In this document: one piece after another, positions 11,746 through 22,868 of the stretch
Layout: each line of letters opens with the position of its first letter
Numbering within the stretch: position 1 is the first letter of the stretch
Source: a phage
Length of the DNA: 64,000 nt
Sequence record: PZ452594.1
Reading direction: 5' to 3' (one strand)
The notes under the pieces: model-generated
Database searches by the model: none
The model's input: the letters and a program-made list of their open reading frames with translations, nothing else
What the model was told of the DNA's origin: nothing
Made by a program: the position numbers and the translations under genes

Positions 11746-12165
11746 TTATTCCTTAAAGTGTGCTTTCAACATCTGATACAAGGACCATGCCTGTTCATTA
11801 TTTTCAATAGTAACTTTCATGACTGGGAATTCTGTGAAATCTTCTATTTGTTCTTGCTCTTTCTCTTCCTGCTCTTCAGCTGCCTGGTATGGATTTTCAA
11901 CTTCATCAAAGAACCCAGCTTCGTTAGTAGAAAGCCAGATAAAGTTTTCGTCAAGGATATCACCATGTGTTGCATATCCAACTGTGCCAGTAGATGTCAC
12001 AATTTTAGTAGGACGACCAAGATGGTCAACATCTAAAATTTTAAAAGGATGCATACCTAAACGGCGTGCATAGATTCCGTTATCAGTATGGTCTTTAATA
12101 AAATTTTCTTGAGCTTGTTTATTTTTAAATTGATACCATTTATTAACTTCAAATTTAATAGCCAT
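11746..12165 (-). CDS. hypothetical protein (139 aa), acidic C-terminus
   Basis: ORF track; size close to T4 goF but not verified. Confidence 0.5.
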
Positions 12166-20432: not shown

Positions 20433-20636
20433 TCATGATTTATCCCCATAGATGTCTCTCATCAATTTAAGCGCTGAGCGTTCTAATTTCTTTTCTTTCT
20501 CAACGCTAATCATTGATTTCATCCATTCTTCTGATTCGTTCTGCATTTCTTTATTTGCCTGTTCAACCCAACCATCATCAATGTACATTGAGTTTGGTCT
20601 ATTGAACCATTCAAACATTTTCTTCAGAACTTTCAT
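20433..20636 (-). CDS. hypothetical protein (67 aa)
   Basis: ORF track. Confidence 0.45.
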
Positions 20637-21108
20637 TTGTTTTACCTAAAACGATAGTATGGACACCGTCAAATTCATGAATTTTTAGCAAATTAGGATT
20701 TAAATTATTCCATAAAGAGGTAATAAAATATGATAGCGCACTTTCGTCCGTAATTATAAATTTATTTCCTTTATCTATTTTCCAATCATATATTGAATCG
20801 TATGAATAGAAGGATAACGGTTTATTATTATAGTATGCTTCAGCAACATCAATATAGTTAGATTTAGTAAATGCTTGAATTGCCATAAATGGAGAATTTT
20901 GTACAGTTTCAATAATTCCGATCTTTTTAAGTTTTATTTCAACATCTTCTGGAACTGGCATTGAAATAAAATCTTCTACTAGATACATGTCATTGTCATA
21001 TCTTTTATCAATCATTACTGCTACTGTAATTGGAACATCCTTGACAAACGCCATACTAATACTATTGATAGACATTTCAAACAAAATCGCTTCCATAATT
21101 TTCCTCAA
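20611..21108 (-). CDS. hypothetical protein (165 aa), Mrh-sized
   Basis: ORF track; size near T4 Mrh, not verified. Confidence 0.5.
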
Positions 21109-21446
21109 TCACAAGATGTAGATGAACAACTAGAATCACAAGAACTTCCACATGAATCGCCCGTCCATACATGAACAGGAACATTAGTATCATATGAATC
21201 AGAACTAGACTGTGTATTCTGTGCATTAGATGATGTAGTAGGTACTGACCAGCGCCAAGGATTTTTATAATATTCTTGGGCTTCTTCATAAGTCATAGTA
21301 ACTGCTTCTACTGTTCCATCTCCCATATAAACATATTCAACTACAGTTAAAGGAATGTAGTCATTTGAAATAGGAACTACACCTTCTCCGGGAGTTGTAG
21401 AGAAAAAATCCGTAAAGAAACTTTTAAACCAATTAAAGATAAACAT
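21105..21446 (-). CDS. hypothetical protein (113 aa) with Cys/Ser-rich C-terminal tail
   Basis: ORF track; tail ...[18 protein letters not shown]. Confidence 0.5.
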
Positions 21447-21652
21447 TACAAAAAGCCTCTTTTGAATTCGACTTGCTTTTCGCCATAATCATATCGAATC
21501 TCTGCATTAAATTCGACAGAACCATCTGCATACATCATAAATGAATGCACAACAACTTCTGTAGACCATGGTTGTAGTTCATATTTCTTCATTACATGTC
21601 GTGAAATGATAATATCTAAATCTTCATTCGGTTTAATCCAACGATTTAACAT
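21446..21652 (-). CDS. hypothetical protein (68 aa)
   Basis: ORF track; upstream of soc. Confidence 0.45.
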   Translation of the reverse strand: MLNRWIKPNEDLDIIISRHVMKKYELQPWSTEVVVHSFMMYADGSVEFNAEIRYDYGEKQVEFKRGFL

Positions 21653-21710
21653 AGCGCTCTCCTCTATAAGATAATTTTATTATACCATACTCATTTTGGA
21701 AAGTAAACCA

Positions 21711-21744
21711 TTTAAATGAAAAAAGGACTCCCGAAGGAGTCCTT
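21711..21744 (-). terminator. intrinsic terminator after soc
   Basis: Hairpin aaggactcc-cgaa-ggagtcctt (21723-21744; UUCG loop in RNA) followed by U-run (plus A-run 21717-21722). Confidence 0.6.
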
Positions 21745-21748
21745 GAAT

Positions 21749-21994
21749 TTATTCACCAGTTACTTTCCACAAATCTTCATTTGCAGCAATCCATTCAGTA
21801 CGTTGATTTTCTTCATATACTGTAGAATATGCTGCTTTTTCTGAAGGGAATGTCTGGTAATGTGCACCAGAAATTTTGTGAACGTCAGAATAAAGAGGGA
21901 AAGCTACGGAAATTTCCTTTCCTTCAATTTTCTTATTTCCATCTAATTTCTGCTCAAATGTTTTGATATTAACATAACCGCGAGTACTAGCCAT
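21749..21994 (-). CDS. soc: small outer capsid protein Soc (81 aa)
   Basis: MASTRGYVNIKTFEQKLDGNKKIEGKEISVAFPLYSDVHK... recognised as T4 Soc. Confidence 0.92.
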   Translation of the reverse strand: MASTRGYVNIKTFEQKLDGNKKIEGKEISVAFPLYSDVHKISGAHYQTFPSEKAAYSTVYEENQRTEWIAANEDLWKVTGE

Positions 21995-22077: not shown

Positions 22078-22596
22078 TTAATAGCCTCGGTCTTGACGAG
22101 CGAAATTTTCAGCATTTTTCAGATAATAAAGTTTAAATATTTCTTCAGCTGACATTCCAAGAGCAATAAATTTATTCATGAAAAAGTGAAATTGGTCAAT
22201 CAGTTCAAATTTAATTTCAAGCTGATCTTCAGGAGATAAGTCTTGAATTTTCTTGGATTGCATTTCAGAATAACGTTTCTTCCAAGGTTTCCATACGGCA
22301 GAAGCTTCTTTTTCACCATTACTCATACCACCAAGAGAAGTATATAGCTCGCGAGTTTCATCTGCGATATAATCGTCTTGGTTTCGCAACCAAGCAAGAA
22401 CTTCTCCTGCAGTTTCAAGTGAATCAGGATGACGATTTGTTTCTGGTTTATCATTAGCCAAACGAATCTGTAAATGCCGCTGCATATCAAGCATAACCTG
22501 CAGTGGGTCAATATTGTGCATAATATTCTCAGCATATGCACGATTTGCTTTATCAACACCTTCGATCAAATGAGCGCATTCATTAAAGTAAGCCAT
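22078..22596 (-). CDS. 56: dCTPase/dUTPase gp56 (~172 aa)
   Basis: MAYFNECAHLIEGVDKA... recognised as T4 gp56; track ORF 22078-22689 is an upstream non-ATG extension. Confidence 0.88.
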   Translation of the reverse strand: MAYFNECAHLIEGVDKANRAYAENIMHNIDPLQVMLDMQRHLQIRLANDKPETNRHPDSLETAGEVLAWLRNQDDYIADETRELYTSLGGMSNGEKEASAVWKPWKKRYSEMQSKKIQDLSPEDQLEIKFELIDQFHFFMNKFIALGMSAEEIFKLYYLKNAENFARQDRGY

Positions 22597-22667
22597 TATT
22601 TTTCCTTTCAATTCATGGGTTAGTAGATTAATTATACAATAAATATATAAAGCAATAAGGAGGACAT

Positions 22668-22868
22668 ATGGTACAAAAATTAATGGCACTTGTTAATGCC
22701 ATAAAAGGTAATAAAAAACGTATAGCTTTTACTATTTCTGCTATGGTAGGAATTTTACTCTGGAACTTTATTCTATCACCTGTTGCAATTGCACATGGTA
22801 TTAATATTCCAGTAGTTACTCTTGATACATTTGTAGATTTAGCATTTGCTTTAGTTGGGTTGATTTAA
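22668..22868 (+). CDS. small hydrophobic protein (66 aa) on the opposite strand
   Basis: ATG 22668 preceded by AAGGAGG (22657-22663); two hydrophobic segments; convergent with gene 61 and ends 3 nt into it. Confidence 0.5.
   Translation: MVQKLMALVNAIKGNKKRIAFTISAMVGILLWNFILSPVAIAHGINIPVVTLDTFVDLAFALVGLI

What the first reader, a model, noticed from the sequence alone, without database searches (positions are those of the whole stretch)
21105..21446. Small protein with a Ser/Cys-repeat C-terminal tail
The 113-aa ORF ends in [18 protein letters not shown], an alternating Ser-Cys low-complexity tail that is uncommon in phage early proteins. It could bind metal, be a site of modification, or be a frameshift-prone tract.
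Basis: seen in the sequence. Interest (0 to 1): 0.4.

Follow-up and report, generated by a model that had tools for sequence, protein, structure and literature searches.

The report
T4 Mrh.1: conserved Ser/Cys tail
The ORF is the T4-type phage early gene mrh.1, a known family of unknown function, and its odd Ser/Cys tail is a real, strongly conserved, probably disordered C-terminal motif always ending in Cys-Asp, not a sequencing error or slippery tract, though what it does is still untested.

Summary
Window 21105-21446 (- strand) encodes a 113-aa protein ending [18 protein letters not shown]. It is the orthologue of phage T4 Mrh.1 (96% identical, identical tail) and belongs to Pfam DUF7206 / phrog_2031. 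It sits in the early cluster soc - mrh.2 - mrh.1 - mrh.

The tail is not an artefact. Across 114 distinct family proteins from T4-like enterobacterial phages, with 26% mean column identity:
- the penultimate residue is always Cys;
- the last residue is Asp in 112 and Asn in 2;
- a second Cys lies 5-10 residues upstream.

Codons vary synonymously, including TCN/AGY serine switches. The tail DNA has no tandem repeat, no homopolymer and no RNA structure signal. The four-Cys "alternating" version occurs in only 4 of the 114 proteins, all T4-type or T4-mosaic. Other lineages have Tyr or Ser at two of those positions.

AlphaFold predicts an N-terminal amphipathic helix, a small beta-hairpin/helix core (EYVYMGDG) and a disordered tail. 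No structural or functional homologue was found, and no paper found in the library names the gene.

My best guess, at low confidence, is a tethered thiolate/carboxylate claw that binds a metal ion or a host metal site. Redox, docking-motif and modification readings remain open. This is a known gene, of modest interest.

The parts
21105..21446 (-). mrh.1 coding sequence (113 aa plus TGA stop at 21105-21107); orthologue of T4 Mrh.1, Pfam DUF7206
   Evidence: ORF listed. Pfam PF23836 E=1.5e-29, 103 bits against a cutoff of 25.6, covering the full length. phrog_2031 E=2e-33. 96% identical to T4 AAD42613. Annotated Mrh.1 in phage NR1.
21108..21161 (-). Ser/Cys/Asp tail, residues 96-113 ([18 protein letters not shown]). 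Family-conserved Cys are C103 or C107 and C112, followed by terminal Asp113. C99 and one further Cys are T4-type extras.
   Evidence: Tail statistics over 114 family proteins: Cys at -2 in 114/114, Asp at -1 in 112/114, Ser at -3 in 104/114, second Cys 5-10 residues upstream. Codons vary synonymously. Most tail residues have pLDDT below 50. No tandem repeat. RNA folding z-score +0.62.
21180..21248 (-). Variable Ser/Thr/Asn/Gln-rich linker, residues 67-89
   Evidence: Indels and substitutions among close orthologues. Replaced or extended by a helical segment in RB69/JS98-type proteins and in the mosaic P0003. AF2 pLDDT below 50 from residue 70.
21264..21347 (-). Small folded core, residues 34-61: beta-hairpin (34-40, 46-52) carrying the near-invariant EYVYMGDG motif (residues 37-44, nt 21315-21338), followed by a helix (53-61)
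   Evidence: AF2 secondary structure, block mean pLDDT 76-86 over residues 31-60. The hairpin is also predicted for the RB69-type protein. Invariant or near-invariant columns E37, Y40, G42, D43, G44, E47, V49.
21402..21443 (-). N-terminal amphipathic helix, residues 2-15 ([14 protein letters not shown]); family consensus M-I-x-W-L-K-N-L-F
   Evidence: AF2 helix 3-15. Hydrophobic moment 0.47 against a shuffle mean of 0.24, with 3% of shuffles reaching it; homologues less clear, 0.44-0.69. K8 and F15 near-invariant.
21446..21652 (-). mrh.2 (68 aa), upstream gene. Its TAA stop shares one base with the mrh.1 ATG (TAATG), which suggests translational coupling.
   Evidence: phrog_1873.
20611..21096 (-). 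mrh (161 aa from the ATG at 21096), downstream gene. Its Shine-Dalgarno sequence (GAGGA) overlaps the mrh.1 stop codon.
   Evidence: Pfam T4_MRH E=8e-41. Annotation in NR1 and T4. Sequence read.
21679..21707 (-). Sigma-70-type early promoter candidate for mrh.2-mrh.1-mrh (TTTACT, 17 nt spacer, TATAAT, with extended TG)
   Evidence: 10 of 12 consensus matches, the best site in the region. T4 mrh.1 RNA is classed as early.
21723..21744 (.). GC-rich hairpin terminator between soc and the mrh.2 promoter
   Evidence: 9-bp stem followed by a T-run on the - strand. Annotated as a terminator at the same place in phage NR1.

Best explanation
Shown:
- The ORF is the orthologue of phage T4 early gene mrh.1 (family DUF7206). 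The family was found only in T4-like phages of enterobacteria.
- It lies in the plastic early region between soc/56 and mrh/srh/mod/dda. In T4 the 39-56 region that covers this stretch is reported as a nonessential deletion.
- The protein has three predicted parts: a short N-terminal amphipathic helix; a small beta-hairpin/helix core around the near-invariant EYVYMGDG motif; and a long disordered Ser/Asp/Gly/Tyr-rich tail.
- The end of the tail is fixed by selection as two S-C-D triads. The second triad is the very C-terminus. The tail is therefore a functional peptide motif, not an error or a slippery tract.

Inferred, and my preferred mechanism: the tail is a flexible thiolate-plus-carboxylate claw. 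Two Cys, their neighbouring Asp residues and the free C-terminal carboxylate would chelate a metal ion. The ion could be free (Zn, Fe or Cu), bridged between two chains, or the metal site of a host protein that the tail plugs. The helix and hairpin would dock the protein on its partner or at the inner membrane. T4-type phages doubled the number of thiols by replacing Tyr/Ser with Cys.
For: Identity:
- Pfam DUF7206 at 103 bits against a 25.6 cutoff, and phrog_2031.
- 96% identity to T4 Mrh.1 with an identical tail.
- Synteny in NR1 and T4.
- tblastn found the protein in 502 phage records.

Selection on the tail:
- Across 114 distinct proteins with 26% mean column identity, Cys is at -2 in 114/114, Asp at -1 in 112 (Asn in 2) and Ser at -3 in 104.
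- A second Cys lies 5-10 residues upstream.
- Cys is followed by Asp in 215 of 240 cases and preceded by Ser in 221 of 240.
- The last 25 residues contain no Lys, Arg, Glu, Leu, Met or Gln, and Cys is almost absent elsewhere in the protein, 0.1%.
- Ser codons switch between TCN and AGY, Cys between TGT and TGC, and Asp between GAT and GAC, while the residue is kept.
- The tail survives domain shuffling. P0003 has a different middle with the same tail, and P0011 has a T4-like N-domain with a 2-Cys tail.
- It also survives changes of the downstream gene, so an overlapping ribosome-binding site does not explain it.

Disorder and architecture: two AF2 runs with a 114-sequence alignment put most of the tail below pLDDT 50.

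Chemistry (inference): variable Cys-Cys spacing in a Gly/Ser spacer fits two ligands that must close on one centre rather than dock in a rigid groove. A thiol next to a free carboxylate is a classical zinc-binding arrangement (my knowledge of thiol-carboxylate metalloprotease inhibitors such as captopril). Tyr/Cys exchange at the x-Asp positions fits ligand roles.

Dispensability: the 39-56 region is described as a nonessential deletion, and mrh.2 as nonessential, in PMC8262927.
Against: - No metal-binding family, zinc finger or metallothionein model matches.
- There is almost no His in the tail.
- Most lineages have only two Cys, too few for a tetrahedral site unless the protein dimerises.
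- An exactly penultimate Cys in 114/114 proteins looks more like a terminus-anchored recognition or reaction motif than a generic chelator.
- The T4 proteome study assigned the protein no expression class. Its tryptic peptides of 8, 53, 4 and 48 aa would make detection hard.
- No partner, phenotype or publication was found.
- Membrane binding by the N-terminal helix rests only on a modest hydrophobic-moment signal.
Confidence: 0.35

Rival explanations
1. Terminus-anchored short linear motif. The free -Ser-Cys-Asp-COOH end, with the upstream SCD and SYD repeats as extra weak copies, is read by a pocket of a host or phage protein. It may also be the site of an enzymatic modification of Cys, Tyr or Ser, for example as a decoy substrate. 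No bound metal is involved.
For: The last three residues are fixed relative to the C-terminus in all 114 proteins, and no member extends beyond the terminal Asp/Asn. The tail is disordered, as linear motifs usually are. The repeated S-[Y/C]-D-S-G-S units suggest multivalency.
Against: No candidate reader or modifying enzyme is encoded nearby. The neighbouring genes differ between lineages. Two invariant Cys are unusual for a purely non-covalent docking motif.
Confidence: 0.22
2. Redox-active dithiol tail. The two Cys on a flexible C-terminal tail cycle between dithiol and disulfide. This would resemble the C-terminal Cys pair of class Ia ribonucleotide reductase alpha or of methionine sulfoxide reductase. 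The tail would then engage or titrate thioredoxin/glutaredoxin systems or sense oxidative conditions.
For: There are two invariant Cys 5-10 residues apart in a flexible Gly/Ser-rich C-terminal tail, with no other Cys in the protein. Cys counts are almost always even: 2 in most proteins and 4 in T4-type. Comparable Cys-pair tails on reductases are known from my own knowledge, not tested here.
Against: No reductase or thioredoxin-fold domain is attached; the rest is a ~60-residue helix/hairpin. Three-Cys members exist (P0056, P0120). The invariant terminal Asp and the Cys-Asp pairing are not explained.
Confidence: 0.13
3. RiPP-like precursor. The N-terminal part acts as a leader and the Ser/Cys/Asp tail as a core peptide that is cross-linked (lanthionine, Cys-Asp thioether or azole formation) by a host or phage enzyme.
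For: The tail gives a sub-threshold hit to the FxLD lanthipeptide precursor model TIGR04363 (E=0.014, 15.3 bits). Ser/Cys/Asp-rich C-termini are typical of RiPP cores (my knowledge).
Against: The score is half the curated cutoff of 30. No Pfam family was recorded for several flanking small genes, and none of the families that were recorded is a lanthipeptide synthetase, YcaO or radical-SAM maturase. No bacterial-genome relatives in a biosynthetic context were found. A 113-aa protein with a folded core is atypical for a precursor.
Confidence: 0.03
4. Artefact or neutral low-complexity sequence: a sequencing or assembly error, a slippage-prone tract, or a spacer without specific function.
For: The sequence is low complexity, and BLAST masks it so that alignments stop at residue 94. 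Frameshifted copies of the gene do exist (P0006, L007).
Against: The tail is identical in independently sequenced genomes including T4. It is conserved at 26% overall column identity with synonymous codon turnover. There is no DNA repeat or homopolymer in the tail. The frameshifts lie outside the tail.
Confidence: 0.02

Closest known systems
Phage T4 Mrh.1 (UniProt P20706; Pfam DUF7206 / PF23836; phrog_2031)
   Same: Same gene: 96% identity, same length, identical tail, same neighbours (mrh.2 upstream, mrh downstream) and the same early expression class.
   Different: Nothing of substance: 4 substitutions, none in the tail. The family itself has no assigned function.
Lambda CIII and Bacillus SpoVM (small amphipathic-helix inhibitors of the membrane Zn-protease FtsH)
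   Same: Small phage or cell proteins with a predicted amphipathic helix. CIII stabilises sigma-32 (PMC1838920). mrh.1 sits next to mrh and srh, which are annotated as sigma-32-related. A long unstructured tail ending in a thiol plus carboxylate could in principle reach a zinc active site (inference).
   Different: There is no sequence homology and no CIII Pfam hit. CIII and SpoVM have no Cys tail. No evidence links Mrh.1 to FtsH. In RB69/JS98-type and Cronobacter phage loci mrh.1 occurs without mrh.
C-terminal Cys-pair tails of thioredoxin-dependent enzymes (class Ia RNR alpha, MsrA)
   Same: Two Cys a few residues apart on a flexible extreme C-terminal tail (my knowledge, compared).
   Different: Those tails serve a catalytic domain in the same protein. 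Mrh.1 has none.
RiPP core peptides (FxLD lanthipeptide precursors, TIGR04363; microcin B17-type Gly/Ser/Cys cores)
   Same: Ser/Cys-rich C-terminal peptide following a non-Cys N-terminal part; weak model hit.
   Different: The hit is below threshold. No maturase family was recorded on the neighbouring genes. The protein has a folded core and is much longer than typical precursors.
Metallothionein-like or MerR-type (CueR C-x7-C) thiolate metal sites
   Same: Cys thiolates separated by short Ser/Asp/Gly-rich spacers (my knowledge).
   Different: No family match. Only 2 Cys in most lineages. The site is on a disordered tail rather than a structured loop.

Membership tests
DUF7206 / T4 Mrh.1 family | Pfam PF23836 score above the gathering cutoff over the full length | tested here: met
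   103.2 bits against a cutoff of 25.6; residues 3-113 match profile positions 1-107 of 107.
DUF7206 / T4 Mrh.1 family | Orthology with T4 mrh.1: high identity and the same genomic position | tested here: met
   109/113 residues identical. Gene order soc - mrh.2 - mrh.1 - mrh as in T4 and NR1.
DUF7206 / T4 Mrh.1 family | Family motifs: EYVYMGDG core and C-terminal S-C-D | tested here: met
   Both are present in the window protein and in 113 other members.
Lanthipeptide / RiPP precursor (TIGR04363 FxLD family) | Model score at or above the curated cutoff | tested here: not met
   15.3 bits against a cutoff of 30, E=0.014.
Lanthipeptide / RiPP precursor (TIGR04363 FxLD family) | A maturase gene (LanB/C/M/KC, YcaO or radical SAM-SPASM) in the neighbourhood | tested here: not met
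   The annotated or Pfam-assigned neighbours are soc, 56, mrh, srh, Mod ADP-ribosyltransferase and dda in four lineages. Several small neighbours have no Pfam assignment.
FtsH inhibitors of the lambda CIII / SpoVM type | Amphipathic alpha helix | tested here: inconclusive
   AF2 predicts a helix at 3-15. Hydrophobic moment is 0.47, reached by 3% of shuffles; homologues are weaker.
FtsH inhibitors of the lambda CIII / SpoVM type | Sequence relationship to CIII | tested here: not met
   No Pfam family other than DUF7206 at E<=1.
FtsH inhibitors of the lambda CIII / SpoVM type | Inhibition of, and degradation by, FtsH; stabilisation of sigma-32 | not testable with these tools
   Needs biochemistry or genetics.
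Zinc-finger / metallothionein / other curated metal-binding domains | Match to a curated metal-binding model or to a solved metal site | tested here: not met
   No Pfam or NCBIfam hits. No PDB sequence hit for the tail at E<=10. No significant fold hits.
Zinc-finger / metallothionein / other curated metal-binding domains | Actual metal binding | not testable with these tools
   Requires ICP-MS, native MS or spectroscopy on purified protein.
Redox shuttle tails (RNR alpha / MsrA type) | Cys pair on a flexible C-terminal tail | tested here: met
   Two invariant Cys 5-10 residues apart in the last ~15 residues, mostly pLDDT below 50.
Redox shuttle tails (RNR alpha / MsrA type) | Attached reductase catalytic domain | tested here: not met
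   Only a ~60-residue helix/hairpin/helix core without Cys.

The most novel reading that the evidence does not exclude
The invariant -Ser-Cys-Asp-COOH end on a long disordered tether, combined with an N-terminal amphipathic helix, could be a previously unrecognised phage 'thiol warhead'. The tail would be fed into a host metal-dependent machine and plug its catalytic metal with the terminal thiol and carboxylates. The membrane Zn-protease FtsH, which degrades sigma-32, is the most attractive candidate given the neighbouring srh and mrh genes. On this reading Mrh.1 would be a T4-group functional counterpart of lambda CIII that works by a different chemistry. Nothing here tests this. It rests on motif position, composition and gene neighbourhood only.
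Probability: 0.06. Interest if true: 0.75.

Novelty: already known. Interest (0 to 1): 0.33.

Why it matters
T4 is among the most studied phages, yet many of its early genes, mrh.1 included, have no known function. This analysis gives Mrh.1 (DUF7206) a concrete anatomy and a sharply defined motif that can be tested by mutation: two S-C-D triads, the second exactly at the C-terminus, conserved across very divergent T4-like phages. That points to thiol chemistry (metal, redox or covalent) as the thing to test. It also explains why tryptic proteomics is likely to miss the protein. If the tail proved to target a host metalloenzyme or a defence factor, it would add a new type of small phage effector. 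As it stands, this is an ordinary orthologue of a known uncharacterised gene.

Tried and rejected
- Literature. Full-text searches for 'mrh.1', 'DUF7206' and 'P20706/Y01F' returned no papers. The only traces were in a supplement.
- Searching for the tail on other protein families all failed:
  - A tail-only profile search of 5.8 billion proteins gave nothing significant.
  - tblastn with a C-terminal half found only the same family.
  - The weak hits to other PHROG profiles could therefore not be followed.
- Structure. Foldseek against BFVD found only the protein's own family. Against PDB nothing had E below 2. PDB sequence searches for Mrh.1, Mrh.2, Mrh and the tail alone were empty or insignificant.
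- Distribution. No bacterial-genome relatives were found. RB49 (Krischvirus) lacks the cluster and any such tail in its first 50 kb.
- RNA-level explanations were rejected. There are no Rfam hits in the window, and the tail-coding RNA folds no better than shuffles.
- Slippage was rejected: no tandem repeat and no homopolymer in the tail.
- An obligate partnership with Mrh or Mrh.2 was rejected. mrh is absent beside mrh.1 in RB69/JS98-type loci. Both mrh and srh are absent in a Cronobacter phage. The upstream small ORF is not homologous across lineages.
- The overlapping 70-aa ORF at 21077-21289 is just the out-of-frame reading that appears in the frameshifted copy P0006.

Full report
**What is there**

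- The last 17 residues contain 4 Cys (positions 99, 103, 107, 112), 8 Ser and 3 Asp.
- With the composition of the window's long ORFs, the chance of at least 4 Cys in 17 residues is 5.6e-5, and of at least 8 Ser is 4.9e-6.
- The only other S/C-rich stretch found in the six-frame scan lies in a + strand ORF antisense to a 139-aa - strand ORF, so I treat it as spurious.

**Identity**

The window is a Tequatrovirus (T4-type) genome.
- The 1.5-kb region matches 505 phage records at 80-99% identity.
- The ORF is annotated Mrh.1 in phages NR1, AR1, PP01 and T4.
- It is 109/113 identical to T4 Mrh.1, with an identical tail.
- It matches Pfam DUF7206 (PF23836) over its full length at 103 bits against a cutoff of 25.6, and phrog_2031.

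The surrounding genes on the - strand are, in order:
- primase 61 and dCTPase 56;
- soc (21749-21994);
- a hairpin terminator (21744-21723);
- a strong sigma-70-like promoter, TTTACT-17-TATAAT with extended TG (21707-21679);
- mrh.2 (21446-21652), whose TAA stop shares a base with the mrh.1 ATG;
- mrh.1;
- mrh (ATG at 21096), whose Shine-Dalgarno sequence overlaps the mrh.1 stop.

In T4, mrh.1 RNA is classed as early, while the protein has no expression class in the proteome table (supplement of PMC9697503). That is unsurprising, because trypsin would give peptides of 8, 53, 4 and 48 residues. PMC8262927 describes the T4 39-56 region, which covers this stretch, as a nonessential deletion and treats mrh.2 as nonessential.

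**Is the tail real?**

Yes.
- Close relatives keep it: RB68, IMG/VR contigs and T4.
- Distant relatives were found through IMG/VR loci, an exhaustive HMMER search and a profile search.
- These gave 114 distinct full-length proteins with only 26% mean column identity. The named ones come from phages of Escherichia, Salmonella, Edwardsiella, Serratia, Enterobacter and Cronobacter, including Tevenvirinae such as Kanagawavirus and the genus Muldoonvirus.

In all 114 proteins:
- the penultimate residue is Cys;
- the last residue is Asp in 112 and Asn in 2;
- position -3 is Ser in 104;
- a second Cys lies 5-10 residues upstream, with spacing 6 in 54 proteins and 8 in 33;
- Cys is followed by Asp in 215 of 240 cases and preceded by Ser in 221 of 240;
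- the last 25 residues are 43% Ser, 14% Asp, 14% Gly, 8% Cys and 8% Tyr, with no Lys, Arg, Glu, Leu, Met or Gln;
- Cys is 0.1% of the rest of the protein.

The family motif is therefore [S-Y-D-S-G-S]n - S-C-D - (S/G)4-8 - S-C-D-COOH. Other lineages carry Tyr or Ser at two of those positions.

Selection acts on the protein:
- Ser codons switch between the TCN and AGY families, Cys between TGT and TGC, and Asp between GAT and GAC, while the residues stay the same.
- The tail-coding DNA has no tandem repeat and no homopolymer.
- Its RNA folds no better than shuffles, z = +0.62. There are no Rfam hits in the window.
- The downstream gene differs between lineages (mrh, srh or a Mod ADP-ribosyltransferase), so an overlapping ribosome-binding site cannot explain the conserved ending.
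- Two frameshifted copies exist. Both break outside the tail: L007 has an extra T in the T6 run at nt 38-43, and P0006 has lost a base in TATTAT at codons 59-60.

**Anatomy**

AlphaFold2 with the 114-sequence alignment predicts:
- a helix at residues 3-15;
- a beta-hairpin at 34-40 and 46-52 carrying the near-invariant EYVYMGDG, with block mean pLDDT 76-86 over residues 31-60;
- a helix at 53-61;
- almost all of residues 70-109 below pLDDT 50.

The RB69-type protein gives the same picture, with two extra helices in its longer middle region and most of its tail also below pLDDT 50.

The N-terminal helix is amphipathic in the window protein. Its hydrophobic moment is 0.47 against a shuffle mean of 0.24, and 3% of shuffles reach it. 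The signal is less clear in homologues. The family consensus there is M-I-x-W-L-K-N-L-F.

The parts recombine:
- P0003 (164 aa) joins a T4-type N-domain, an RB69-type middle and a 4-Cys tail.
- P0011 joins a T4-like N-domain and a 2-Cys tail.

**What it resembles**

Nothing solved or characterised.
- Foldseek finds only the family itself in BFVD, and nothing with E below 2 in PDB.
- PDB sequence searches with the family profile, the tail, Mrh.2 and Mrh gave nothing significant.
- NCBIfam gives only a sub-threshold hit of the tail to a lanthipeptide precursor model, 15.3 bits against a cutoff of 30. This reflects composition.
- None of the Pfam families recorded on neighbouring genes is a RiPP maturase, and no bacterial-genome relatives exist.
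- No paper in the searchable library names mrh.1 or DUF7206.
- No constant partner gene exists. mrh is missing beside mrh.1 in RB69/JS98-type loci. Both mrh and srh are missing in a Cronobacter phage. The upstream small ORF is unrelated across lineages.

**Mechanism**

Shown: a selected, terminus-anchored, disordered tail with two S-C-D triads, attached to a small helix/hairpin protein expressed early.

Inferred:
- Cys occurs essentially only in the tail and is invariant there, so thiol chemistry is the point of the motif.
- The variable Gly/Ser spacing between the two Cys suggests they must close on one centre.
- The neighbouring Asp residues and the free terminal carboxylate add hard ligands.
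- I therefore favour a flexible chelating claw that binds a metal ion or plugs a metal site of a partner. The helix and hairpin would provide docking, possibly at the membrane. Confidence is about 0.35.

Rivals:
- a terminus-anchored docking or modification motif without metal (0.22);
- a redox dithiol tail like those of RNR alpha or MsrA, but without a catalytic domain (0.13);
- a RiPP-like core (0.03);
- an artefact or neutral spacer (0.02).
- The remaining probability is 'something else'.

A more daring reading is a functional analogue of lambda CIII or SpoVM. These are small amphipathic-helix inhibitors of the membrane zinc protease FtsH, and CIII stabilises sigma-32 (PMC1838920). The idea is prompted by the neighbouring sigma-32-related srh and mrh genes. 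A PLoS Genetics 2012 paper (PMC3486835, seen in title and abstract only) reports a T4-related phage protein that stabilises sigma-32. This reading is untested, and I give it about 6%.

**Verdict**

- The 'error or frameshift-prone' reading is refuted.
- The 'metal or modification' readings remain open.
- The feature is an orthologue of a known but uncharacterised T4 gene, so novelty is low.
- The useful output is the sharply defined family motif and the experiments it suggests.

Noticed in passing
L034:1224-2738 (+), Enterobacter T4-like phage contig: A 504-aa protein combines a Soc (small outer capsid) domain with GDSL lipase/esterase domains. It sits right next to a normal 82-aa soc gene, which suggests a capsid-displayed enzyme.
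   Followed up: no
window 22596-22865, compared with T4 (L038): This phage lacks segF and dam, which T4 carries between soc, 56 and 61. Instead, a 66-aa + strand ORF (22668-22868) sits between 56 and 61. It is annotated as an RB51-like hypothetical protein in phage NR1.
   Followed up: partly
P0003 (164 aa) and P0011 (96 aa), relatives of window 21105-21446: These are mosaic Mrh.1 variants. P0003 has a T4-type N-domain, an RB69-type helical middle and a 4-Cys tail. P0011 has a T4-like N-domain with a 2-Cys tail. This shows domain shuffling within the family.
   Followed up: partly
L007:1480-1587 and P0006: Frameshifted copies of mrh.1. L007 has an extra T in the T6 run (nt 38-43 of the gene). 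P0006 has lost one base in TATTAT at codons 59-60. Either sequencing errors or pseudogenes; both changes lie outside the Ser/Cys tail.
   Followed up: yes
P0057, P0073, P0074, P0112, P0125 (C-terminal halves): Weak hits (E 1e-3 to 3e-6) run to or near the end of other PHROG profiles of unknown function (phrog_17348, 13684, 29057, 22391, 29294, 36383, 14698). Other phage protein families may carry a similar tail. The members could not be retrieved.
   Followed up: partly
L008, L010, L012 (RB69/JS98-type) and L035 (Cronobacter phage): mrh is absent next to mrh.1 in RB69/JS98-type loci, where srh follows directly. In the Cronobacter phage both mrh and srh are absent, and a Mod ADP-ribosyltransferase follows.
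   Followed up: yes
L037 (RB49, Krischvirus, 1-50000): RB49 has modB directly next to gene 56, with no soc/mrh cluster. No ORF in its first 50 kb has an S-C-D-type tail. DUF7206 therefore seems absent from this T4-like lineage.
   Followed up: partly
window 11777-12073 (+): A second S/C-rich stretch ([13 protein letters not shown]) lies in an ORF antisense to a 139-aa - strand ORF (11746-12165). It is most likely spurious.
   Followed up: yes
PMC8076793 (literature): The neighbouring protein Mrh is reported to purify as a megadalton assembly, with a 3.3 A cryo-EM structure mentioned as 'data not shown'. No matching PDB sequence was found.
   Followed up: partly
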